From: Chthoniobacteraceae bacterium
Lineage (GTDB): Bacteria > Verrucomicrobiota > Verrucomicrobiia > Chthoniobacterales > Chthoniobacteraceae
Assembly: GCA_031409655.1 (NCBI GenBank)
Contig: JANNXQ010000107.1
Location: 32,001 to 96,000, forward strand
Length of the DNA stretch: 64,000 nt
Direction: 5' to 3'
In this document: in pieces, positions 1 to 59,885 of the stretch
Layout: the number at the start of each line of letters is the position of its first letter
Position numbering within the stretch: the stretch's first letter is position 1
Position numbers and translations under genes: made by a program
Notes under the pieces: generated by a model
Seen by the model: only the letters and a program-made list of their open reading frames with translations
Told to the model about the DNA's origin: nothing
Database searches by the model: none

Positions 1-522
1 CGAGAGACCGGTTGGACACACCGGATGCTGCGTGAGCGCCGAAAGTTCACTGGCAAAGCCGAGGGTGTCGCCTTCGTGAAAGTAATACAGCGGCTTCTTC
101 CCGAAGCGGTCGCGCGAGCCGAACAGCCGCCGCCGCGCGCGATCGTAGATCACGAACGCCCACATCCCATTCAGCCGCTCGACGAAACCATCGCCCCACG
201 TCCGGTAGCCGTGCAGCAAGACCTCGGTGTCGCTGTGATCGGTGACAAACTCGCAGCCCGCCGCCTGCAACCCCGCGCGCAGTTCCGCGTGATTGTAGAT
301 CTCGCCATTGAAGATCACACTGAGCTGCCCATCGCGCGTCCACATCGGCTGCGCGCCGCCGCCGAGATCGACGATCGACAGCCGCCGATGGCCGAGGAAG
401 ACACCCGCGCTTTCCTCCTGCCAGTGACCCTCAGCGTCCGGGCCGCGGTGGCGGATGGCGTCCGTCATCCGGCGCAGCGTGGCCACATCGCCGCGACCGA
501 CGAAGCCAGCTATCCCGCACAT
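1..522 (-). CDS. asnB: Asparagine synthase (glutamine-hydrolysing)-family amidotransferase, 5' part; continues beyond the window edge
   Basis: Absent from the ORF track (no stop in window). Manual translation from ATG at 522 gives MCGIAGFVG...HRGPD...LGHRRLSIVDL..GAQPM...FNGEIYN...SDTEV...LNGMWAF...RDRFGKKPLYY, the Ntn-GATase N-terminus of AsnB. Confidence 0.92.
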   Translation of the reverse strand, partial: MCGIAGFVGRGDVATLRRMTDAIRHRGPDAEGHWQEESAGVFLGHRRLSIVDLGGGAQPMWTRDGQLSVIFNGEIYNHAELRAGLQAAGCEFVTDHSDTEVLLHGYRTWGDGFVERLNGMWAFVIYDRARRRLFGSRDRFGKKPLYYFHEGDTLGFASELSALTQHPVCPTGLS

Positions 523-532
523 CGGCCCAGAA

Positions 533-626
533 AACGTCGAACATCGAACACCGAACATCGAACATCGAACGGGCAGAGGCCGCAGCCCGTTCGACGTTCG
601 ACGTTCGATGTTCGATGTTCGATGTT
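533..626. repeat. Palindromic heptamer array: 5x AACRTCG-type units, short loop, 5x CGAYGTT
   Basis: Units at 533-567 are mirrored at 592-626, with inner stem AACGGGC/GCCCGTT. Fills the GT2-asnB spacer. Confidence 0.95.
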
Positions 627-628
627 CC

Positions 629-1576
629 TCATTTCCCCGCCAGATTCCTCGTCCCACGCACGAGGTACACGCTCTTATTCTGGCTCTCGTAAAAAGTCCG
701 CATGATCATCTCCGCAAGCAGCCCCATGAGGATGCACATCAGCCCCGTCACCGCGGTAAGCACCGCGCAGAGGAGTAGCGGATTGCGGATAAAAGACTCG
801 CCTTCGACGAGCTTCCGCCACAGCGCCAGGCCGCCGCTCGCGATGCTGACGGACAGCGTCGCGAGGCCGACGGCCCCGAAGAGATACATCGGCTTCTGCT
901 GGAAGCGGTCGAGGAACTTTACCGTCACCAGATCGGCGACCACCTTCAGTACCCGCTCAAGGCCATACTTTGAGTCGCCAGCGGTGCGGGCGGAGTGACG
1001 CACCACGACCTCGGCGATCTCCGCTCCGTGCCAGCGGGCGTAGATCGGCAGGAAGCGGTGCATCTCGCCATAGAGCCGAACGCCTTCGATGACCTCGCGC
1101 CGATACGCCTTCAGCGAACAGCCGAAGTCATGCAGCCGCACGCCGCTGACGAGCGAGATGAGCCGGTTCGCCATGATGCTCGGGAAGTTGCGCTTGATCG
1201 CATTGTCCTGCCGATCCTTCCGCCAGCCGCTCACGACATCGAAGCCTTCGTCGAGCTTCGCGAGGAGCAGCGGGATATCGGCGGGATCATTTTGCAGATC
1301 GCCATCCATCGGGATGATGATCTCGCCGGTCGCGAAATCGAAGCCGGCCATCATCGCGGCGGTCTGGCCGAAATTGCGGCGGAAATGCACCACCTTCACG
1401 CGCGCATCGTGACCCGCGAGTTCGTCGAGTAGTTCGTCCGAGCCGTCCGTCGAGCCATCATTGACGAGCACGAGTTCCCACGGCCCGCCGACTTTCTCCA
1501 TCGCATCGCGCACGCGTTCGTAGAGGGGCTTGAGATTTCCCGCCTCATTGCAGATCGGGATCGTCACGGAAATCAT
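629..1576 (-). CDS. GT2 polyprenol-phosphate glycosyltransferase (ArnC/DPM1-like) with two C-terminal TM helices
   Basis: MISVTIPICNE, VNDGSTD, RRNFGQTAA, MDGDLQNDP, VVSGWR, DFGCSLKAYRRE, MHRFLP. Start reassigned to ATG 1576. Confidence 0.9.
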   Translation of the reverse strand: MISVTIPICNEAGNLKPLYERVRDAMEKVGGPWELVLVNDGSTDGSDELLDELAGHDARVKVVHFRRNFGQTAAMMAGFDFATGEIIIPMDGDLQNDPADIPLLLAKLDEGFDVVSGWRKDRQDNAIKRNFPSIMANRLISLVSGVRLHDFGCSLKAYRREVIEGVRLYGEMHRFLPIYARWHGAEIAEVVVRHSARTAGDSKYGLERVLKVVADLVTVKFLDRFQQKPMYLFGAVGLATLSVSIASGGLALWRKLVEGESFIRNPLLLCAVLTAVTGLMCILMGLLAEMIMRTFYESQNKSVYLVRGTRNLAGK

Positions 1577-5108: not shown

Positions 5109-5878
5109 GCCAGCTCGCGGACATCACCTTCCCAAAAACCACGCCGCTCCCGAAGATCCTCGATGCCATCGACGAGTTCGGCGTGCTCATCATTCCCGAC
5201 TATCTCGACGCGGAAAAAGTCACCGGTCTGACCGAGGAATTTCTCCGCTTCTTCGAGACGGAAGCCGCCTACGTGCAGCGGCTCGAGTATAAGGCCGGAC
5301 GCGCTGTCAGCGTCCGCCGTTCGCAACTCGATACCGCGCTCTTTCCGCTGACCGCCGAGGTCTTCGGCTCGGAATACGTGGAGCGGTGCACGGATCGCTA
5401 CTACCGCGGAAAGCCGCACCTCACGAATTTCGAGATCTTCTGCACGCACGATCAGCCGCGCGAGGAGCCGATCAATCCCATCCATTTCGACAAGCTCCAG
5501 TCGCTGAAATTTTTCCTCTATCTCAAGGACACGACCGCGACGAACGGCGCGTTTGATTGCGCTCCCGGCTCACATCACGCCGCTCGTAAAATTGCCAACC
5601 GCCACTTGCGCCGCGGTGGGCGGATGAAGGAAATCCCGAATCAACAGCTCCCGCCCGAAGGCCTGCCGCTCATCCCGATTGAAGGTCCGGCCGGCGCGAT
5701 GATCATCTTCACCACCGACGCGTATCATCGCGGCGGCGTCGTCTCGCCGGGCACCGAGCGTTTCGTGATGCGCGGACACTGCCGGTCGCAGCCCGCTCCG
5801 GTCTATGAGCCGACGCGCGGCAGCCGCCAATGGTGGCGCGAGTCGGCGTTCAATCCGCTGCGGTATCTCCCTGTCTGA
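5105..5878 (+). CDS. PhyH-like Fe(II)/2-oxoglutarate dioxygenase
   Basis: H-x-D (IHFD), LKFFLYLKD...NGAF..PGSH, GPAG...DAYHRG...R. Confidence 0.8.
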   Translation: MSQLADITFPKTTPLPKILDAIDEFGVLIIPDYLDAEKVTGLTEEFLRFFETEAAYVQRLEYKAGRAVSVRRSQLDTALFPLTAEVFGSEYVERCTDRYYRGKPHLTNFEIFCTHDQPREEPINPIHFDKLQSLKFFLYLKDTTATNGAFDCAPGSHHAARKIANRHLRRGGRMKEIPNQQLPPEGLPLIPIEGPAGAMIIFTTDAYHRGGVVSPGTERFVMRGHCRSQPAPVYEPTRGSRQWWRESAFNPLRYLPV

Positions 5879-24680: not shown

Positions 24681-24801
24681 GAGTAGCGCAGGCTTCCAGC
24701 CTGTGGGAGTGCCGCGGGCATCCTTGCCTGCTTTTTGCGTAGCCGAACGAAGCAGGCTGGAAGCCTGCGCCAACCCGACAGGCTGGAAGCCTGCGCTACT
24801 C
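24681..24801. repeat. GTAG-type REP doublet (REPIN-like)
   Basis: Perfect 24-bp inverted repeat GAGTAGCGCAGGCTTCCAGCCTGT (24681-24704 / 24778-24801) plus an internal partial copy at 24752-24770. Confidence 0.85.
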
Positions 24802-48885: not shown

Positions 48886-49848
48886 ATGACTAATACCCTC
48901 TGGCTCTGGATCGGCTTCAATGTCTTCGTCCTCCTCATGCTCGCGCTCGACCTTGGCGTCTTCCATCGGAAGGCGCATGTGGTCTCCTTTCGCGAAGCCA
49001 TCGCCTGGACGATCGCCTGGGTCACCCTGGCCATGCTCTTTAATATCGGCATTTGGTATTATGCCGGAGCGCAGAAGGCCCTGGAATTCACCACTGGCTA
49101 CGTCATCGAATACTCGCTCAGCGTGGATAACATCTTCGTCTTCGCGATGCTGTTTTCGTATTTCGCGGTGCCGCCGCTCTATCAGCACCGGGTGCTCTTC
49201 TGGGGCATCCTCGGCGCGCTGGTCCTGCGGGCTCTGATGATCGTCGCGGGCACCGTGTTGATCACGAAGTTTGCGTGGATCATCTATGTCTTCGGCGCGT
49301 TTCTGATCATCACCGGCATCAAAATGATCGTTAAGCGCGAGGAGGAGATTCACCCCGAGCGCAACCCGGTGGTGCGCTGGTTTAAGAAACTCATGCCGGT
49401 GACCAGCGACTATCGCGGCGATAAGTTCTTTGTGCGCGAAAACGGCGTGCGCATGGCCACGCCGCTCTTCGTGGTGCTCTTGCTGGTGGAAGTCTCCGAC
49501 GTGATTTTCGCGGTCGATTCCATCCCGGCGATCTTCGCGGTCACCAAGGATCCATTCATCGTCTATACGTCGAATGTCTTCGCCATCCTCGGTCTGCGCT
49601 CGCTGTATTTCGCGCTGGCGGGAGTGTTGGACAAATTCCACTACCTCAAGATCGGTCTCGGTGTCGTGCTGACCTTTGTCGGCGTGAAGATGCTGCTCGG
49701 GCACACCGCTTACAAGATCGACACGCTCGTCTCGCTCGGCGTGATCGTCGGCGTGCTTGCCGCGTCGATTATCGTGTCGCTCATGCGGCCGAAGAAAGCG
49801 GAGCTGCAGCTCGGCCACGCTCCAGATGTGACCCCTCCGCAACCCTGA
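48886..49848 (+). CDS. terC: TerC/Alx-family membrane protein, copy 1
   Basis: E.SLSVDNIFVF, QHRVLFWGILGA..R, D.IFAVDSIPAIFAVT.DPFIVYTSN.FAILGLR. Confidence 0.93.
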   Translation: MTNTLWLWIGFNVFVLLMLALDLGVFHRKAHVVSFREAIAWTIAWVTLAMLFNIGIWYYAGAQKALEFTTGYVIEYSLSVDNIFVFAMLFSYFAVPPLYQHRVLFWGILGALVLRALMIVAGTVLITKFAWIIYVFGAFLIITGIKMIVKREEEIHPERNPVVRWFKKLMPVTSDYRGDKFFVRENGVRMATPLFVVLLLVEVSDVIFAVDSIPAIFAVTKDPFIVYTSNVFAILGLRSLYFALAGVLDKFHYLKIGLGVVLTFVGVKMLLGHTAYKIDTLVSLGVIVGVLAASIIVSLMRPKKAELQLGHAPDVTPPQP

Positions 49849-49937
49849 TGCGCATTGCCCTCGCCGTCCGCGCGCTATTTTAAAGCACCGCAGATCGCGG
49901 CCAACTTAGCCATACTTCCACACTCCCATCGTAACTA

Positions 49938-50900
49938 ATGACTAATAACCTCTGGCTCTGGATCGGCTTCAACGTCTTCGTCCTCCTCATGCTCGCGCTC
50001 GACCTTGGCGTTTTCCATCGGAAGGCACACGTCGTGACTTTCAAGGAGTCGATGGCGTGGACCGTCGTCTGGGTCACGCTCGCGCTGATCTTCAACCTCG
50101 TTGTGTGGCACTACATGGGGCCGCAGAAGGGGCTCGAGTTCTTCACCGGCTACGTCATCGAGAAGTCGCTCAGCGTGGATAACGTCTTCGTCTTCGCGCT
50201 CCTCTTTACCTACTTCGCGGTGCCGGCGCTTTATCAGCACAAGGTGCTCTTCTGGGGGATCCTCGGCGCGCTGATCATGCGGGCGATCATGATCTTCCTC
50301 GGGGCGGCTCTGATCGAACGCTTCACCTGGATCATCTACATCTTCGGCGCGTTCCTCATTCTCACGGGCATCAAGATGATCGTGAAGCGCGAGGAAGAGA
50401 TTCATCCCGAGCGCAACCCGCTGGTCCGCTGGTTTAAGAAGCTGATGCCGGTGACGAACGACTATCGCGGCGACAAGTTCTTCGTGCGGGAAAACGGCGT
50501 CCGCATGGCCACCCCGCTCTTTATCGTGCTGCTGCTCGTCGAGTTCTCCGACCTGATTTTTGCGGTCGATTCGATCCCCGCGATCTTCGCGGTCACCAAG
50601 GATCCGTTCATCGTCTATACGTCGAACGTCTTCGCCATCCTCGGCCTGCGCTCGCTCTATTTCGCCCTCGCCGGAGTGATGGACAAATTCCACTACCTCA
50701 AGATCGGCCTGGGTGTCGTGCTCACCTTCGTCGGCGTGAAGATGCTGCTCGGGCACACGCCTTACAAGATCGACACCCTGGTCTCGCTCGGCGTCATCGT
50801 CACCGTGCTCGCCGCCTCGATCGTCGTGTCGCTGCTGCGACCCAAGAAAGCAGTCATGAAAATCGGCCACGCTCCGGGGACGACCCCTGAGCAACCCTGA
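49938..50900 (+). CDS. terC: TerC/Alx-family membrane protein, copy 2
   Basis: Same motifs (EKSLSVDN); same 320-aa length as copy 1. Confidence 0.93.
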   Translation: MTNNLWLWIGFNVFVLLMLALDLGVFHRKAHVVTFKESMAWTVVWVTLALIFNLVVWHYMGPQKGLEFFTGYVIEKSLSVDNVFVFALLFTYFAVPALYQHKVLFWGILGALIMRAIMIFLGAALIERFTWIIYIFGAFLILTGIKMIVKREEEIHPERNPLVRWFKKLMPVTNDYRGDKFFVRENGVRMATPLFIVLLLVEFSDLIFAVDSIPAIFAVTKDPFIVYTSNVFAILGLRSLYFALAGVMDKFHYLKIGLGVVLTFVGVKMLLGHTPYKIDTLVSLGVIVTVLAASIVVSLLRPKKAVMKIGHAPGTTPEQP

Positions 50901-53312: not shown

Positions 53313-54880
53313 TCCCCGCGATCGTCGTCTTCATCTATCTCGCGATCATCCTCTACGTGGGGATGTTTGCCTTCCGCAAGAGCACCGGCTCGAAGGAGGA
53401 TTTCTTCCTCGCGAGCCGGTCGCTCGGGCCGTGGGTTTTTCTGCTCACGGTCTTCGGCACAAACATGACGGCCTTCGCCATCCTCGGCAGCTCGGGCCTC
53501 GCATATCAGCGCGGCATCGGCGTTTACGGGCTCATGGCTTCGTCGTCCGGGCTGATTATTCCGCTCACCATTTTCCTCATCGGCACGCGGCTGTGGTCGC
53601 TCGGGAAAAAGCATGGCTATATGACGCAGGTGCAGTATTTCCGCGACCGCTGGGAGTGCGATGCCATCGGCACGCTCATCTTCGCCGTTACCGCGCTGAT
53701 GATGATCCCGTATGTCGTCATCGGCATGATGGGCGGCGGCCACACGCTCGATAGTCTCAGCGATGGATGGGTGCCCTACTGGCTTGGCGGCGCGATCGTC
53801 GCGGTTGTGGTGATGCTCTACGTTTTCTTTGGCGGCATGCGGGGCGTGGCGTGGGTGAATGCGCTCCAAACCGTGCTCTTCCTGTGCTTCGGCGCGATCG
53901 CCTTCTACCTCATCTCGCGCAACCTCGGCGGCTACGACCGGATCATGGCCGAGATCGCCGCGAACCCGAAGGACTCCACGCTGCTCACCCGCGCGCGCAT
54001 CTCGCCGCAGGAGTTCTTCAGCTACACCTTCATCCCGCTCTCCGCGATGATGTTTCCACACATGGCTATCATGTGCATGACGGCGGAAAAGGTGACGTCC
54101 TTCAAGCGCACGGTCATCTGGTATCCCATCTGCATCCTGCTCATCTGGCTGCCCAGCGTGTATCTCGGCGTCATCGCCGCGCATCAGTTCCCCGGCCTCA
54201 AGCTCGGCGAATCCGACGACGTCATCCTGCGCCTGCTCAGCGACAACACCGATGTCGTCGTAGCCGGCATTCTCGGCGCGGCGATCATGGCCTGCGTCAT
54301 GGCGACCGATTCGCAGATCATGGCGCTGAGCACCATGTTTAGTCAGGATGTCTTCGCGCACTACGGCGGCGCGAAGAAATACGGCGAGAACGTGCAGGTC
54401 TGGATGGGTCGCGCGTTTGTCATCGTCATCGCCATCGTCAGCTACGCCCTCGCGCTCGCGCTGGAGGGACAGAAATCCATCTTCGATCTCGCCATCCGCT
54501 TCGGCTTCTCCGGCTTCGCTGCACTCGCACCGGTGATGCTCGCCGCGCTCTTCTGGCGGCGGAGTAATAAATGGGGCGCCCTCGCCGCCGTGCTCTGGGT
54601 CGTCTCCTCCATGACCCTGCTCTGGTGGCTGCAACTCCACTCCAACGGTCTCGCACCCAAACCCGGCCAGCCGCCCGTGCCCATCTTCGCCGAACTCGGC
54701 AGCCTCTTCCTCCGCACGCCGATGAACGTGACCATCTTCGGCTACATGCCCGTGATGTTCATGTGCCTCGGCTCCGCGTTCTGGATGGCGCTCGTGAGCC
54801 TGCTCACACCCGCTCCTTCACGACCCACGATCGAGAAATTTTTCCCATCATCCAAACCCAAGCTTCTTCCCGCCGCATGA
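53309..54880 (+). CDS. Sodium:solute symporter (SSF)
   Basis: DFFLASRSLG, Y..FGGMRGVAW.N.LQ, A.MAT.DSQ.MALSTMF..D. Confidence 0.92.
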   Translation: MIPAIVVFIYLAIILYVGMFAFRKSTGSKEDFFLASRSLGPWVFLLTVFGTNMTAFAILGSSGLAYQRGIGVYGLMASSSGLIIPLTIFLIGTRLWSLGKKHGYMTQVQYFRDRWECDAIGTLIFAVTALMMIPYVVIGMMGGGHTLDSLSDGWVPYWLGGAIVAVVVMLYVFFGGMRGVAWVNALQTVLFLCFGAIAFYLISRNLGGYDRIMAEIAANPKDSTLLTRARISPQEFFSYTFIPLSAMMFPHMAIMCMTAEKVTSFKRTVIWYPICILLIWLPSVYLGVIAAHQFPGLKLGESDDVILRLLSDNTDVVVAGILGAAIMACVMATDSQIMALSTMFSQDVFAHYGGAKKYGENVQVWMGRAFVIVIAIVSYALALALEGQKSIFDLAIRFGFSGFAALAPVMLAALFWRRSNKWGALAAVLWVVSSMTLLWWLQLHSNGLAPKPGQPPVPIFAELGSLFLRTPMNVTIFGYMPVMFMCLGSAFWMALVSLLTPAPSRPTIEKFFPSSKPKLLPAA

Positions 54881-54952
54881 ATGGAGCGCCGCGAGTGCGG
54901 GCACCGTTTTCAAGTGCGCGAGCAAAAGTTCGTCGAGTGAGTGGTCGAGCAT
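54881..54952 (-). pseudogene. Possible 5' stub of the next prophage gene, truncated at the symporter stop
   Basis: ATG 5 bp after the upstream TAA; MLDHSLDELLLAHLKTVPALAALH then runs into the antisense of the symporter. Confidence 0.35.
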
Positions 54953-55117
54953 GGCGTTTAGTCCTCCGGCTCGACGACGAGCACGATCATCGGGAATTGC
55001 GGGTGGTCGGTGACTCGCGTGATGCGGTAGGTCACGCCCTGGAACGCCAGCGTTTCGCCGAGCTTGGGCCGATCCGCACCAAGCTCAGAGCGCAGCACCT
55101 TCATCGTGCAATCACCG

Positions 55118-55224
55118 TTGCCAGCGACTCGCCCACCCGCCCACCTCCCTATTCCCTTCCTCCTCCTCGGCCTTCCGGCGCGGCCCTTCGGGCTGCCTGC
55201 GGCAGGCTGTCTCGCTCCGCTCGG
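55118..55224 (-). mobile_element. 63-bp hairpin element E carrying a nested 44-bp R element
   Basis: Excision restores the host frame. Hairpins CTGCC-GCA-GGCAG and CCC-GAA-GGG; GCGCC-GGAA-GGCGC is re-formed when R is removed; ends GGCAA. Confidence 0.75.
55126..55169 (-). mobile_element. G-rich 44-bp element R (copy c)
   Basis: CGAGGAGGAGGAAGGGAATAGGGAGGTGGGCGGGTGGGCGAGTC, flanked GC|GC. Confidence 0.75.
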
Positions 55225-55432
55225 CTCGCATCGAATCCACCAAGGCCGAGGTCTTGGCTCAGCGGGTTATCGGACACGAGCGCGTGAAGCGTTCGCCCCT
55301 TCCAAACAATTTCCTCGCCAATGGCGGCGAGAACCTCGGCGAGCGCGGCGGCTTTTTCATCGTGAAGACTCATGCCGCTGCGCGGCTGTCAAAGGCTCCG
55401 TTTTCTGATCGCGGCGATTCGCCGCCTCCGCG

Positions 55433-56350
55433 CTATCGATTGAAGACTGGAATGGAATACGCGCGTGAAGACGTGCGGTATTCGCGGGGAGCGCTGCCGA
55501 TGTGCCGAGTGAAGCAGGCGGTGAGGTGGCTGTGGCTGGAAAAGCCGCAGTCGAGCGCGATGGTGGTGATGTCCTTTTGCGTGCTGATCAACTGGTGTTG
55601 TGCGCGACGCAGGCGCTGACGAATGATGTATTGGGCGGGCGTGCTGCCGAACGCTTTGCGGAAGGCGACGAGAATCTGGTGCGTGGTGAGGGCCGCGAGC
55701 GCCGCGAGTTCGGCCAGCGTGACGCGTCCGTCGAGACGGGCGTCGATGTGATCCCGCAGCAGGCGGATCGTGCGCGCATCGAGGCTGGGGCCACGTTCCC
55801 GTTTGCGATCCGCAACGAGTCCGTCGGGAGCAAGCGACCGCAGCAAGTGGAGGCCGATGCTTTGGCTGAGCGACTCGGCAAGCATCGCGGAGACATCGTC
55901 GCTCGAATGCGTGGCTGCGAGGAGTGCGCGCACGGCGTGGTGCAGGAAGTCATCCCGCACGCCGGCCACGGGCGCGATGTCCTGCCGCCCGTTCGTGGAG
56001 CCGCGCACGAGGTCACCCGCATCGGGTCGAAGGCGAAGCACCGCATATTCGATGGCCTGGCCGCACGCGTGGCTCGCATACCTGCGCCCGGCGGGAACCG
56101 TCCAGATTTCCCCCGGCAGGGCCGGACCGTTGCTGCCCCCGAATCCGTCGAGTTCCGTTTCGAGACGGTCCATGTGCCCGCTGAGATGGATGACGATGGA
56201 ATGCACAGGCTCGCAGATGCGCCAATCTGTAGGCCGACGAATGTCGTCGCCGCGGTGAATGACCTCGAGGCCGGGGAAACGCGTTTGCGTTTCCTCCAGC
56301 ACGACGGCGGCGGCACCATCGCCGATGCGGGTAGCGGGCTTGCGAGGCAT
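55433..56350 (-). CDS. AraC-family transcriptional regulator
   Basis: LAELA..F.KAFG.TP.QY....RL..A...L...IALDCGFSSHSHLT..F....G..P..YR. Confidence 0.9.
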   Translation of the reverse strand: MPRKPATRIGDGAAAVVLEETQTRFPGLEVIHRGDDIRRPTDWRICEPVHSIVIHLSGHMDRLETELDGFGGSNGPALPGEIWTVPAGRRYASHACGQAIEYAVLRLRPDAGDLVRGSTNGRQDIAPVAGVRDDFLHHAVRALLAATHSSDDVSAMLAESLSQSIGLHLLRSLAPDGLVADRKRERGPSLDARTIRLLRDHIDARLDGRVTLAELAALAALTTHQILVAFRKAFGSTPAQYIIRQRLRRAQHQLISTQKDITTIALDCGFSSHSHLTACFTRHIGSAPREYRTSSRAYSIPVFNR

Positions 56351-56466
56351 GGCCGGAGTGTGTGGTGCGCCATGTGCGCGGCAAGTTTGAAAGTGCGCCG
56401 GAGAAATTGAAAGCGGATCGCCGCCGCCGTCGCTAAAAGTGAATTTGAAACCCAAACAACAAACTT

Positions 56467-57240
56467 ATGAGCAAGCACAGCATCAAAGACAAAGTCGTCC
56501 TCGTCGGCGGCGGAGCCAAGAACCTCGGTGGCCTCATCAGCCGCGACCTCGCCGCGCAGGGCGCGAAAGCCGTGGTCGTCCACTACAACAGCGCTGCCAC
56601 AAAAGCGGCCGCGGATGAAACCGTCGCGGCAGTGAAGGCGCTCGGCGCGGGAGCCATCGCCGTCGCCGGAGACCTCTCGAAGCCCGCGAACAACGCGGCG
56701 CTTTTCGCCGCAGCGGTCAAGGAATTCGGCGGCGTGGACATCGCGATAAACACCACCGGCATGGTCATCAAGAAACCCATCGTGGATGTCACCGAGGATG
56801 ACTTCGACAAAATCTTCGCCGTGAATGCCAAAGCCGCATTCTTCTTTATGCAGGAGGCCGGCAGAAAGCTGAACGACGGCGGAAAAATCTGCACCATCGT
56901 GTCGTCGCTGCTCGCGGCTTACACGGACGGCTACTCGATCTATCCCGGCTCGAAGGCACCCGTGGAGCACTACACGCGTGCGGCCTCAAAGGAATTCGGC
57001 CCGCGCTGTATCTCCGTCACCGCCGTCGGCCCCGGTCCGATGGAGACGCCGTTCTTTTACGGTCAGGAAACGGATGCCTCGGCGAAATACAACCAGACCG
57101 CCGCAGCGCTCAGTCCCTTCACCAAGACGGGCCTCACCGACCCCGCCGACATCGTGACGCTCGTGCGCTACCTCGTGAGCGACGGCTGGTGGATCACCGG
57201 CCAGACCATCTTTGCCAACGGCGGCTACACGACACGATGA
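56467..57240 (+). CDS. SDR oxidoreductase
   Basis: GGAKNLGG, YPGSK, GPGPMETPFFY, WITGQTI.ANGGY. Confidence 0.92.
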   Translation: MSKHSIKDKVVLVGGGAKNLGGLISRDLAAQGAKAVVVHYNSAATKAAADETVAAVKALGAGAIAVAGDLSKPANNAALFAAAVKEFGGVDIAINTTGMVIKKPIVDVTEDDFDKIFAVNAKAAFFFMQEAGRKLNDGGKICTIVSSLLAAYTDGYSIYPGSKAPVEHYTRAASKEFGPRCISVTAVGPGPMETPFFYGQETDASAKYNQTAAALSPFTKTGLTDPADIVTLVRYLVSDGWWITGQTIFANGGYTTR

Positions 57241-57241
57241 G

Positions 57242-57514
57242 ATGCACACGCTGCTAGTCGTTGCCGGGGGCTTCCTGCTGCTCGGGCTTTGCCTGCTCGT
57301 GGCGAAACTCATGGGTGGCGCACCCGCGGCGTTCGCGCGCGCCGCGCTCGTATTCCTTCCGCTCTGGTTCGTCGGCGCCGGCGTGAACCTGTGGATTGGC
57401 GTGGCCACAGCCGGCTACACCGTGCGTGAGGAACTGCCCATCTTCGCACTGGTCTTTACGGTGCCGGCTGCGGTTGCGATGCTGGTGTGGTTCGCGTATC
57501 GCGACAGACATTGA
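57242..57514 (+). CDS. Small 3-TM membrane protein
   Basis: F.PLW....NLWIGV..AGY...EELPI...F.VP. Confidence 0.7.
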   Translation: MHTLLVVAGGFLLLGLCLLVAKLMGGAPAAFARAALVFLPLWFVGAGVNLWIGVATAGYTVREELPIFALVFTVPAAVAMLVWFAYRDRH

Positions 57515-57517
57515 TTT

Positions 57518-58105
57518 ATGGAAAAAGGACGACTCGAAGCCTTCAGCGATGGCGTCATCGCAATCATCATCACGATCATGGTGCTGGAGATGAAAGTGCC
57601 GCACGGCGCGGACTGGGCCACGCTCCAGCCGCTGCTGCCCGTCTTTCTCTGTTATGTGCTGAGCTTTCTCTACGTCGGCATCTATTGGAACAATCACCAC
57701 CATCTCCTGAAGGTCTGCCGCCGCGTGACCGGCGGAATCATGTGGGCCAACCTGCACCTGCTGTTCTGGCTCTCGCTCTTTCCATTTGTCACCGGCTGGA
57801 TGGGTGAAAATCACTTCGCCGCCAGCCCGACCGCCCTCTACGGCGCGGCGCTCTTCTGCGCCGCCATCGCTTACTACATTCTGCAGAGGCTCATCCTCAT
57901 TCACCACGGCAATAAGTCGCGGCTGGCTGAGGCGATTGGCTGCGACTGGAAAGGCAAGCTCTCCCCCGTGCTTTATCTTGCCGGTATCGGCCTGTCGTTT
58001 TGGCAGCCTGTCCTGGCGGGCGCGATTTATGTTCTCGTCGCGCTGATGTGGCTCGTGCCGGATCGCCGAATTGAACGCGCAATCGAAGGTGGCGATGAAG
58101 GATGA
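57518..58105 (+). CDS. TMEM175 (DUF1211) family K+ channel
   Basis: RLEAFSDGVIAIIITIMVLE, YW.NHH, L.PF.T. Confidence 0.9.
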   Translation: MEKGRLEAFSDGVIAIIITIMVLEMKVPHGADWATLQPLLPVFLCYVLSFLYVGIYWNNHHHLLKVCRRVTGGIMWANLHLLFWLSLFPFVTGWMGENHFAASPTALYGAALFCAAIAYYILQRLILIHHGNKSRLAEAIGCDWKGKLSPVLYLAGIGLSFWQPVLAGAIYVLVALMWLVPDRRIERAIEGGDEG

Positions 58106-58256
58106 AACCCCGCTGCCGTTTCCAGCAGTGGAGCTCGCAACCACCGAATGATGTCAGCCGCACTTACGGCTTCACGATGCGCTTGATGCCGCCGGCGATG
58201 GCCTGCTTCCAGCCGTAGAGGCACTCGACCGTGACGAAGATGCGGTTGCTGCTCGT

Positions 58257-58321
58257 TTGCCGCTCCGGCGGCTATGCAGTATCCGCTCCGCGTTTGTGGG
58301 AGAGCGCTTCCGCGCGGCGCA
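58257..58321 (-). mobile_element. 65-bp hairpin element Y at CCGAA^AC
   Basis: Same conserved blocks as X; removal rejoins YTE|TSS in frame. Confidence 0.85.
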
Positions 58322-58357
58322 TTCGGTGTAGCGCAGGTAGCCGAAGGTGAGGCCAGT

Positions 58358-58423
58358 TTGCCGCTCCGGCGGCCATGCAGAGAGCGCTCCGCGAGTTCGG
58401 CCGTGCGCTTCCGCGCAATTGCA
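58358..58423 (-). mobile_element. 66-bp hairpin element X at CCGAA^AC (in frame)
   Basis: Removal rejoins DPE|TGL. Confidence 0.85.
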
Positions 58424-58492
58424 TTCGGGGTCGGTGACGGCACCGGCCTCGTCGTATTCGGCGACGGGTTCGAGGTAGCGCATGGCGACCGC

Positions 58493-58536
58493 CGAGGAGG
58501 CGGAGGGGAATAAGGAGGCTGGTGGACGGGCGAGCC
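58493..58536 (+). mobile_element. G-rich 44-bp element R (copy b)
   Basis: CGAGGAGGCGGAGGGGAATAAGGAGGCTGGTGGACGGGCGAGCC, flanked GC|GC; 35/44 identical to copy c. Confidence 0.75.
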
Positions 58537-58586
58537 GCTGGAGACGAGCGTTTCGAGGACGTTGAGCGCCGTCTCGCTCGCCTCGC

Positions 58587-58631
58587 TGCTCGCCCGCCCG
58601 CTGACTACCTCTATTCCCTTCCGCCACCTCG
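58587..58631 (-). mobile_element. G-rich 45-bp element R (copy a)
   Basis: CGAGGTGGCGGAAGGGAATAGAGGTAGTCAGCGGGCGGGCGAGCA, flanked GC|GC. Confidence 0.7.
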
Positions 58632-58961
58632 GCGGTGTAGCTGCCGGCGAACTCGCTGGACTGCGACGGAGCGCCGACCACGGGCACGCGCACGGTGTCG
58701 AGTTTGTCCGCCGGTTCCGGCGAGAAGTTCGTGGAAAAGGCGCGCAGCGGGAGCAGTCCGGCCACAAGCTGCGACGGCATTAATGAGTCCAAGGACGCGC
58801 CCACGATGGCCCCGTCAGATGCGTTCGCGCCGCACATCAGGCGCTGCCGGCGGCACGGCGCATTTGCATCTCCAGACGGCGAACGGACGGTTGTGCTCTT
58901 GCGCGCGAGCGCCGATCAATAGGCTATTCTTATCATCCAAACCCACGCCGCTTCCATCCAC

Positions 58962-59885
58962 ATGAATACACTGACCACGACCGAAACCGAAGCCATCCTC
59001 ACCCTTTGCCTCATCGCGTCCTTCGCCGATGGCGACAAACACGAACGCGAACGCCAGCAACTCAAGAAGATCACCGACTCGCTCGCCGGCGGGGAGGTGG
59101 ACATCACCGCGCTCTATCAGCAAGTGCTGCTGAACAATCCCGACGTCGCCGCAGTCGCCGCGCGCCTGCTCACTCCCGGTGCCCGCCAGCTCGCCTACGA
59201 GATGGCCGTGTGCGTGTGCGATGCGGATGAAGTGTGCAACCCCGCCGAACAGCAATTCCTCGATGAACTGCGCACCGCGCTCGCCCTGCCCACCGCCAGC
59301 ACGCAACCGGTGGACGCCGAAGCCACCGCGCTCGCCACCATTCCCGTGGCCTCACCCGCGCCCGCGCAATCCGAGGAAACCGACGCCATGATCCTGCGCT
59401 ACGCCATCGTCGGCGGCGCTCTGGAGCTACTCCCGCAGACCCTGGCCACGCTCGCCATCGTGCCCATGCAGACCAAGATGGTCTATCGCATCGGCAGCCA
59501 GCGCGGCGTCGAACTCGACCGCAAATCCATCGTCGAGTTCATGGCCACGGTCGGCATCGGCATGGCCTCGCAAGTCTTCGAAGGCTTCGCGCGGCGGCTC
59601 ACCAAAGGACTTGGCAAAGCCGTCGCCGGCAAAATGGGCGGCAAGATCGGCGACGCCGTCGGTGGCATCGCCATGTCCTTCGGCGCCACCTACGCGCTCG
59701 GGCAACTGGCGAAACTCTACTACGACAGCGGCCGCAGCCTGAGCATGGAGACGCTCAAAGCCAAATACCCGCCGCTCCTCGCCGAAGGAAAAACGCTCGC
59801 GCAAAAATACACCACGCAGATCACCGAGCAGAGCCAGCGGCTCCAGGGGGCCGGCCTCAGCACGCTGTTGAAGAAGGTGATCTAA
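58962..59885 (+). CDS. TerB-like domain fused to a DUF697/YcjF-like domain
   Basis: ASFADG.K...ER, AYEMAV.VCDAD....E..FL..LR..L; then GALELLPQ.LA..AI.P.Q.KMVYRIG. Confidence 0.75.
   Translation: MNTLTTTETEAILTLCLIASFADGDKHERERQQLKKITDSLAGGEVDITALYQQVLLNNPDVAAVAARLLTPGARQLAYEMAVCVCDADEVCNPAEQQFLDELRTALALPTASTQPVDAEATALATIPVASPAPAQSEETDAMILRYAIVGGALELLPQTLATLAIVPMQTKMVYRIGSQRGVELDRKSIVEFMATVGIGMASQVFEGFARRLTKGLGKAVAGKMGGKIGDAVGGIAMSFGATYALGQLAKLYYDSGRSLSMETLKAKYPPLLAEGKTLAQKYTTQITEQSQRLQGAGLSTLLKKVI

What the first reader, a model, noticed from the sequence alone, without database searches (positions are those of the whole stretch)
54881..58780. Prophage structural genes riddled with tiny site-specific insertion elements
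Seen: about 1.1 kb of phage-like coding sequence holds six insertions of 44-66 bp (X, Y, E and three R). Removal restores the frame at X, Y, E+R and R-b; R-a is the exception. I saw no copy of these elements in the ~55 kb of host genes. None has terminal inverted repeats or a consistent target duplication, and no transposase is in the window. Known: insertion beside a short motif without duplication, guided by DNA hairpins, is how HUH enzymes (IS200/IS605 TnpA, RAYT) act on ssDNA. Inference: a trans-mobilised micro-element system that disables prophages, or that can be precisely excised as a switch. The simpler alternative is neutral accumulation in unselected DNA.
Basis: partly seen in the sequence, partly recalled or inferred. 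Interest (0 to 1): 0.88.

Follow-up and report, generated by a model that had tools for sequence, protein, structure and literature searches.

The report
Cloverleaf micro-elements riddling dead phage genes
The six tiny inserts in this prophage remnant belong to three families of 44-66-base, protein-free jumping DNA of Verrucomicrobia. Two of the families fold as single strands that join their own two ends, and all three pile up in dead mobile genes of many kinds, so they look like an undescribed kind of very small mobile element rather than a phage switch.

Summary
All six inserts are real, in a truncated capsid gene and a head-closure gene of a prophage relic; 80 of 80 related viral loci lack them. 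They form three families (E, XY, R; 37 copies in this genome; 130 E sites across the Verrucomicrobiota loci fetched). E folds as a single-strand four-arm cloverleaf whose two ends pair with an internal segment (N1-N17 98/103, M20-K 101/103); XY shares that junction helix. Insertion is at S-A|A-H without duplication, and Lys AAG targets end up as A[element]AC, so removal would not restore the gene. R-a and R-b sit on 75- and 372-nt deletions. Prophage targeting and an excision switch are not supported: E flanks are mostly IS and restriction genes (34/41 mobile or defence, 2 phage), a second relic here has none, and two host genes carry in-frame copies. Uniform neutral decay also fails: copies cluster (13/37 within 300 nt), the relic shows almost no point decay, one capsid codon was hit independently in four genomes, and hsdM genes are riddled all-or-none (4/26). 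The mobilising enzyme is not identified. The scan earlier noted similar, unmatched micro-insertions on other DNA.

The parts
58632..58765 (-). Major capsid relic, 5' piece (first ~25 codons missing)
   Evidence: 92-98% nt identity to intact viral loci; PHROG major head for intact homologue L001
58588..58632 (-). R-a, purine-rich R element (43-nt core plus one base each side) at a 75-nt capsid deletion between two CACCGC repeats
58536..58587 (-). Capsid relic, middle piece
   Evidence: 94-96% nt identity to the closest intact loci
58492..58535 (+). R-b, R element (42-nt core plus 2) in opposite orientation at a 372-nt capsid deletion between GCGGTC repeats
58359..58424 (-). X, XY-family element, 66 nt, in the Glu codon of D-P-E-T
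   Evidence: spanned by a contig without differences in run X2
58258..58322 (-). Y, XY-family element, 65 nt, in the Glu codon of Y-T-E-T; a hot site also hit in three other genomes
58164..58491 (-). Capsid relic, 3' piece (interrupted by X and Y)
   Evidence: 0 amino-acid differences to nearest homologues in the segments compared
58105..58155 (-). Terminator-like hairpin after the capsid gene; a native phage feature, not an insert
   Evidence: present after the intact capsid in 12 viral loci
55433..58105 (.). Cargo slot between capsid and head-closure genes: AraC regulator (-), short-chain dehydrogenase, small membrane protein, TMEM175 channel (+); intact, no insert
   Evidence: Pfam; slot length varies among intact phages
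54958..55373 (-). Head-closure (Hc1-like) gene, interrupted by E+R-c
   Evidence: intact paralogue on C109; 103 codons without internal stop when the insert is left out
55119..55225 (-). E element (63 nt, four-arm cloverleaf) with R-c nested in its fourth arm; sits in a Lys codon (AAG/AAA in 9 of 9 intact genes), right junction reads AC
55127..55170 (-). R-c, 44 nt, nested in E
   Evidence: independent R-in-E nests in L159 and L287
54885..54952 (-). First ~23 codons of the next phage gene; right end of the relic

Best explanation
X, Y, E and R are non-coding, non-autonomous mobile elements of 44-66 nt that move as folded single-stranded DNA. SHOWN by covariation: on one strand E folds into four hairpin arms, and its last bases (K-C-A) and first base pair with an internal N-A-G-M segment. 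That puts both ends side by side in one helix with an A.A mismatch at the joint. XY has the same junction helix with different arms; R is purine-rich, has no such fold that I could show, and is a separate family. SHOWN: E and XY enter at S-A|A-H on either strand of a gene, without duplication, and AAG targets come out as A[element]AC. INFERRED: a trans-acting enzyme that recognises folded ssDNA joins this end-to-end unit (probably a circle) into the target and overwrites one or two bases at the 3' joint. My odds for the enzyme: Y1 HUH of the TnpA/RAYT kind about 40%, integron-type tyrosine recombinase about 25%, other about 35%. INFERRED: insertion is genome-wide but very uneven (hot codons, and new copies landing in or near old ones). 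Selection then removes frame-breaking copies from useful genes, so they survive in dead mobile DNA, repeats and redundant tRNA arrays, and in frame in some host genes. Recombination between two copies, or between two target-like sites, gives the deletions. The prophage relic is one such sink, probably kept for its cargo genes; it is dead, not switched off.
For: Fold: 37 gap-free 63-nt E copies, 96% of cells paired, 13 of 21 pairs with two-sided changes, 0/500 shuffles, slid controls 27-41%; XY 12 copies, 93% paired, N1 pair AU 7/CG 5. End pairing: N1-N17 Watson-Crick 98/103, M20-K 101/103. Junction: -1 A 100/103, -2 G/C 96/103, +1 A 100/103, +2 G 0/103; six further XY junctions parsed obey it 6/6. 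Base change: intact Lys codons at head-closure (AAG 7, AAA 2), hsdM Y-K-H (13, 1), D-K-L (11, 3), D-K-x (8, 6) never read AAC, filled copies mostly do. Both orientations: 25 sense, 16 antisense. Selection filter: complete sulfatase and rtcB ORFs with in-frame inserts; elements in capsid relics of 3 other genomes but in 0 of 22 near-full-length genomic capsids and 0 of 80 viral loci. Hot site: four divergent capsid backbones hit at one codon by copies only 74-89% alike. Clustering: 13 of 37 copies within 300 nt of another; simulated means 0.13 (whole genome) and 1.4 (10% permissive). A deletion joining two known E sites is seen in L222.
Against: No enzyme or autonomous partner was found. No circle or excision was observed. 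The search patterns fix arms H1 and H3 of E, so their invariance is not evidence, and related copies inflate covariation counts. 27 of 130 E sites were set aside because arm 4 did not parse. Clustering is only marginal if 2% of the genome is permissive (54/2000). Replacement at +1 is less secure than at +2: Glu can be GAA natively and one copy (C270) keeps G. Shared site-specific variants and the in-frame bias in hsdM are not explained by this model alone. R's fold and boundary are only partly resolved.
Confidence: 0.65

Rival explanations
1. A host defence that actively aims these elements at incoming or resident mobile DNA (phage, IS, restriction-modification, tRNA arrays) and riddles it in a burst, possibly helped by riddled resident fragments that pass insertion alleles to intact newcomers by recombination.
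For: 34 of 41 Pfam-identified E flanks are mobile or defence genes. hsdM loci picked by protein homology are all-or-none: 4 of 26 with 4-8 profile hits, 22 with none. The relic has six inserts and two deletions but 0 amino-acid differences in 119 capsid codons. Riddled hsdM copies from several genera share site-specific variants in incompatible combinations on backbones that differ mostly at synonymous sites. SMR-A repeats of Haloquadratum were proposed to play such a role (PMC3119063, passages).
Against: The C109 relic of the same phage has no insert in 6.4 kb. Copies also sit among ordinary host genes and in host ORFs. Dead DNA is where any insertion survives. No guide-like match between element loops and targets was seen at the capsid hot site.
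Confidence: 0.2
2. Plain neutral accumulation: rare random insertions that survive only in unselected DNA, at an even rate.
For: Inserts are confined to relics among capsid copies; the cargo genes between the phage genes are clean; host-gene copies are in frame.
Against: One codon hit in four independent capsid backbones, among about 110 S-A-R sites per intact gene; almost no point decay in the relic; another relic with a frameshifted portal gene has none; clustering beyond a 10%-permissive model.
Confidence: 0.1
3. A reversible switch: elements are precisely removed from DNA or RNA to turn the phage genes back on.
For: The fold juxtaposes both ends. X, Y and E+R removal reopens the frames. 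One riddled hsdM stays open for 527 codons, and most hsdM inserts are multiples of three. One 66-nt skip at X appears in runs X1 and X2.
Against: The capsid is truncated and twice deleted. Lys-to-Asn change at filled sites. The two unfilled sites inspected in partly riddled alleles show no AAC scar. Both orientations occur. The other skip joints whose inner letters are shown carry those of intact relatives, and the 66-nt skip has unknown letters between.
Confidence: 0.04
4. Assembly or sequencing artefact.
For: The genome is a fragmented assembly (306 contigs, 5.26% contamination) and many copies lie near contig ends.
Against: Copies diverge with compensatory changes; E occurs in two cultured isolates, Chthoniobacter flavus Ellin428 and Luteolibacter marinus NBU1238; contigs of two runs span X, R-a and both relic borders (possibly the source samples).
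Confidence: 0.01

Closest known systems
PATEs and SMR-A small mobile repeats of Haloquadratum (Dyall-Smith et al. 2011, PMC3119063; passages read)
   Same: Transposase-free, no target duplication, down to 52 bp (PATE); SMR-A preferentially hit other mobile elements and their palindromes, mechanism unknown.
   Different: PATEs are fused IS605 ends with a matching autonomous element; none was found here. SMRs have terminal inverted repeats; E, XY and R do not. The passages read describe no end-joining cloverleaf or base replacement.
IS200/IS605 Y1 HUH peel-and-paste, and REP/REPIN-RAYT (Bertels and Rainey 2011, PMC3116915; Di Nocera et al. 2013, PMC3733652; passages read; IS608 guide scheme recalled)
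   Same: Strand-specific hairpins, no duplication, an internal segment pairing with the cut site, probable ssDNA circle; a 'clover' fold was proposed for REPIN excision.
   Different: The internal segment pairs with the element's own two ends, not with the target; junction bases change; no GTAG or CGTC tag; mostly intragenic; R inserts into REPs rather than being one.
Integron attC cassettes inserted at attG sites (Loot et al., bioRxiv 10.1101/2022.09.11.507474; passages read)
   Same: Folded single-strand donor, very short target consensus, hot spots, avoidance of essential genes, deletions on off-site excision; E is shaped like a cassette with three hairpins as cargo.
   Different: No RYYYAAC/GTTRRRY boxes; the joint lies one base 5' of the AA|C cut; integron insertion leaves homogeneous junctions; copies are not arrayed behind ORFs.
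Small dispersed repeats (SDR) of Nostoc (Elhai et al. 2008) - paper not held; seen only through citing passages in PMC4390886 and PMC2884548
   Same: Very small, apparently mobile, site-precise repeats of unknown mechanism.
   Different: About 20 bp, SDR5 enters HIP1 sites; E/XY are about three times longer and use S-A|A-H. A structural comparison was not possible.
Rickettsia palindromic elements (recalled; mentioned in PMC3733652 passages)
   Same: In-frame passengers in otherwise complete host ORFs.
   Different: CGTC-tagged single palindromes; most E/XY/R copies are in broken mobile genes.

Membership tests
IS200/IS605 derivative (PATE) | No terminal inverted repeat, no target duplication | tested here: met
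IS200/IS605 derivative (PATE) | Target tetranucleotide read by base pairing with an element guide | tested here: not met
   M20 does not covary with target -2 or -3; it covaries with the element's own end
IS200/IS605 derivative (PATE) | Insertion leaves the target bases unchanged | tested here: not met
   AAG becomes A[..]AC at four sites with intact controls
IS200/IS605 derivative (PATE) | Ends shared with an autonomous TnpA element | tested here: inconclusive
   No E left-end motif beside any of 13 Y1 genes in this genome (flanks partly cut from view); Y1 in 9/9 E-positive and 29/32 other genomes
IS200/IS605 derivative (PATE) | Cleavage and strand transfer by a Y1 HUH enzyme | not testable with these tools
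   needs biochemistry
REP/REPIN | GTAG or CGTC tag, palindromic doublet, mainly extragenic | tested here: not met
   alignments A1, A2; intragenic sites
Integron cassette / attC | Recognised as a folded single strand with little sequence constraint in the arms | tested here: met
Integron cassette / attC | RYYYAAC and GTTRRRY boxes, cut at AA|C, target GWT | tested here: not met
   junction helix is KCA|N with NAGM; N1 belongs to the element
Integron cassette / attC | Integron integrase present | tested here: inconclusive
   one intact IntI here; 6/9 E-positive vs 13/32 other genomes
MITE / SMR | Terminal inverted repeats | tested here: not met
IS91-type (Y2 HUH) derivative | Y2 transposase co-occurs | tested here: inconclusive
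   2/9 E-positive vs 6/32 other genomes; disfavoured, but assemblies are incomplete
IS110 mini-element | Fixed guide-matched target of about 14 nt and a shared 2-nt core | tested here: not met
   no information beyond -2..+2 over +/-25 nt, variants pooled; the core rule is recalled
Retro-element or self-splicing intron | Reverse transcriptase present; sense orientation; Rfam match | tested here: not met
   no RVT_1 match in this 94.9% complete genome; 25 sense/16 antisense; no Rfam hit near a gathering score
Nostoc SDR | Sequence and structure as defined by Elhai et al. 2008 | not testable with these tools
   paper not held

The most novel reading that the evidence does not exclude
E and XY define a new class of mobile DNA: a ~63-nt single-stranded minicircle folded as a four-way junction and integrated by an undescribed chemistry that overwrites junction bases. 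It is used as a host silencing system that riddles foreign genes in bursts and spreads the damage between copies by recombination with riddled resident fragments.
Probability: 0.18. Interest if true: 0.92.

Novelty: new variant of a known kind. Interest (0 to 1): 0.7.

Why it matters
How repeats under 100 nt move is an open question (SMR, SDR, CGTC repeats). These families give a testable substrate: a covariation-supported fold, exact ends, a junction rule with a diagnostic base change, recurrent hot sites, and two cultured carriers. If the enzyme is found, it would be a ssDNA integrase needing a payload of about 60 nt and a 4-base target. The elements also shape the decay of prophages, IS and restriction systems in Verrucomicrobiota and add 21-residue inserts to host proteins that annotation will miss.

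Tried and rejected
Target-hairpin mimic: the capsid Y hot site can fold like the donor junction (score 9, top 0.3% of background, noticed post hoc), but 96 E sites show no enrichment (mean 3.20 vs 3.17) and six new XY sites score 2-5; rejected as a general rule. The repeat at 58105-58155 is the phage's own terminator. Whole-insert folding energy with flanks is not unusual (z -1.3 to +1.0); the fold rests on covariation. No Rfam family. No cargo-bearing or autonomous form: 23 left-end motif hits in this genome were short elements or chance; 96 ORFs drawn from 40 E loci showed no recurring recombinase. IS91, IntI and Y1 co-occurrence did not discriminate. The R pattern was mis-specified (it missed this genome's own copies) and is discarded; the corrected pattern found R in 0 of 300 other class genomes and an R pattern in 0 viral contigs, although R occurs in E- and XY-bearing loci. 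A canonical G-quadruplex pattern fits only 5 of 19 R copies. The capN segment was off-frame and was redone. No RNA holder listed. One search used contigs only, so rare excision products cannot be seen. The empty integration site of the relic was not found: three congeners gave no match to the flanking symporter, and G012's copy is followed by other DNA. Literature searches returned no description of these families; most subscription papers, Elhai 2008 and all supplements were not seen.
Full report
Locus. The window is G000:C107:32001-96000 of a 6.85-Mb, 306-contig assembly. Named records that share the E element are nearly all Verrucomicrobiota, so I infer that lineage. The finding covers a prophage relic on the minus strand: a capsid piece, its terminator, a cargo slot with four intact genes (AraC, dehydrogenase, small membrane protein, TMEM175), a head-closure gene and about 23 codons of the next gene. 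The capsid N-piece retrieved 94 related viral stretches, 80 kept, and none holds E, XY or R. Intact homologues match PHROG major head and head closure.

Observation. Six inserts are present. Leaving out X and Y, or E+R, reopens the frames. R-a and R-b are not clean insertions: they lie at deletions of 75 and 372 nt between short repeats, and the capsid start is missing. R-c is nested in E. Against the best-matching homologue per segment (a choice that biases low), 651 nt show 33 base and 5 residue differences, none in 119 capsid codons. The relic therefore gained six inserts and two deletions with almost no point decay.

Families. Profiles find 17 E, 6 XY and 14 R copies in this genome, with no hit on reversed sequence; further variants were seen by eye. 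An XY pattern matched 5 of 41.

Structure. Of 130 distinct E sites parsed from 143 loci, 103 had a well-formed fourth arm and were counted; 27 were set aside. The first base pairs with base 17 in 98/103, and base 20 with the third-last base in 101/103. Arms 2 and 4 vary freely but keep pairing: 37 gap-free copies give 96% paired cells and 13 pairs with two-sided changes, no shuffle reaching that (relatedness inflates these numbers, and arms 1 and 3 were fixed by the pattern). The result is a four-arm fold in which both ends meet in one helix across an A.A mismatch. Its G-N-A and G-N-N-A loops and tandem G.A pairs are, from my own knowledge, stable in single-stranded DNA, and the circular form of this strand folds better than its complement in 88/103. 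XY has the same junction helix with other arms. R is 72-86% purine with a 42-46-nt core; I could not establish its fold.

Junction rule. E flanks read S-A on the left and A-H on the right: G never occurs at +2 (0/103), and no other position within 25 nt carries information. Intact genes show what was there. Lys codons at the head-closure site and three hsdM sites are AAG or AAA in all 51 intact cases read, while filled copies read A[element]AC in all but one AAA-type case and two mutated ends. Two R copies in a REP-like repeat read AC where intact repeats read GG. At Y, 32 of 38 intact genes have GAG and the relic has GA[element]A. Removing an element would thus leave a changed base at such sites. 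How the overwrite happens is unexplained.

Where they land. Of 135 E flanks scanned, one best frame each, 41 hit Pfam: 20 IS, 9 restriction or defence, 2 integrase, 1 reverse transcriptase, 2 phage, 7 other. Orientation is 25 sense to 16 antisense. In this genome they lie in hsdM, hsdR, an MmeI-like gene, IS genes and REP-like repeats, and in frame in complete sulfatase and rtcB ORFs. A second relic of the same phage has no insert in 6.4 kb. Prophage specificity is therefore not supported.

But not evenly. Thirteen of 37 copies have a neighbour within 300 nt, against 0.13, 1.4 and 6.3 expected if 100%, 10% or 2% of the genome were open. Among 50 capsid loci or regions from a 151-genome family search, three relics carry an XY at the Y codon and none of 22 near-full-length genes carries any element. 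The four Y-site copies are 74-89% alike, about as much as copies at other sites, and their capsid backbones differ, so the hits are independent; five other broken copies spanning that codon are empty. Among 26 hsdM loci chosen by protein homology, four carry 4-8 profile hits and 22 none. Riddled hsdM copies share site-specific variants in incompatible combinations, on backbones differing mostly at synonymous sites, which suggests recurrent insertion plus recombination between alleles. New XY loci again came with neighbours, including a tRNA array with several interrupted genes.

Mechanism. The fold, the strand specificity and the lack of duplication point to a trans-acting enzyme working on folded ssDNA. 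This genome has 13 Y1 HUH matches, one intact integron integrase, one IS91, four IS110 matches and no reverse transcriptase match. None is flanked by an E end that I could find, and co-occurrence does not discriminate. I favour a Y1 HUH enzyme slightly because a guide-like segment pairs across the joint, with an integron-type recombinase second because of the short consensus, hot spots and deletions reported for attG sites (10.1101/2022.09.11.507474, passages). Defining features of both families failed here, so I claim resemblance, not membership.

Reads. Contigs of four DNA runs from two studies were laid. Two runs, possibly the source samples, span X, R-a and the relic borders. Joints that skip the inserts and show their inner letters carry those of intact relatives; one 66-nt skip at X is unresolved. 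Contigs cannot reveal rare excision.

Verdict. The elements are real, structurally well defined and, in eight library searches, undescribed; very small transposase-free mobile repeats as such are known (PMC3119063, PMC3116915, PMC3733652, passages; Elhai 2008 not seen). Earlier scan notes report similar micro-insertions in other genomes, one with a base-replacing rule; a sequence look-up found no match to these. Best reading: selfish ssDNA micro-elements with hot sites and local pile-up, filtered by selection (0.65). Active targeting of mobile DNA remains open (0.2).

Noticed in passing
L281, L283, L287, L293; G000 C66, C256, C291: Riddled hsdM alleles: founder inserts of 24, 30, 45, 63, 66, 69 and 81 nt are all multiples of three, and L281 stays open for 527 codons with eight inserts, whereas the four capsid Y-site inserts all break the frame. 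Unexplained.
   Followed up: partly
G000 C66:61820-61850, C256:5164-5232 and about 5340-5420; C9:14400, C39:39258, C99:66402, C233:114, C289:45811: Further family members with the same junction rule: a 30-nt mini-E, 69- and 81-nt types, and single-stem intergenic forms, some inside heptamer repeats.
   Followed up: partly
L355:300-3044, L353, L351: tRNA arrays in related genomes with several tRNA genes interrupted by XY and E, some apparently in the T-loop.
   Followed up: partly
L247 (G000 C213) and L240 (G000 C11): Complete rtcB and sulfatase ORFs carry in-frame 21-22-residue inserts made by XY and E.
   Followed up: partly
L081, L211: E inside genes that look like thiC (family recalled from the peptide, no Pfam hit obtained).
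   Followed up: no
window 54821-54882 and 58906-58967: A 62-nt, 73% identical direct repeat brackets the relic plus a non-phage stretch at 58766-58905; it may mark the integration event.
   Followed up: partly
G000 C109:1-6400 (L268): Second relic of the same phage, lacking the capsid, with a frameshifted portal gene and a different cargo gene in the same slot.
   Followed up: yes
window 521-645, 1895-2031, 24681-24801: Inverted heptamer-repeat blocks and a GTAG REP doublet; separate repeat types.
   Followed up: no
L253 (G000 C132:500-2544): Intact integron integrase with an AT-rich upstream region and an attC-like site; E copies elsewhere (L087, L093, L097, L125) sit inside attC-like sequences (judged by eye).
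   Followed up: partly
window 48886-50900: Tandem TerC-family paralogues, 80% identical over the first 300 nt.
   Followed up: no
L349, L350 (G012): The symporter left of the relic is 97-99% identical in a genome of another genus but was not found in three congeners, hinting at transfer or binning noise.
   Followed up: no
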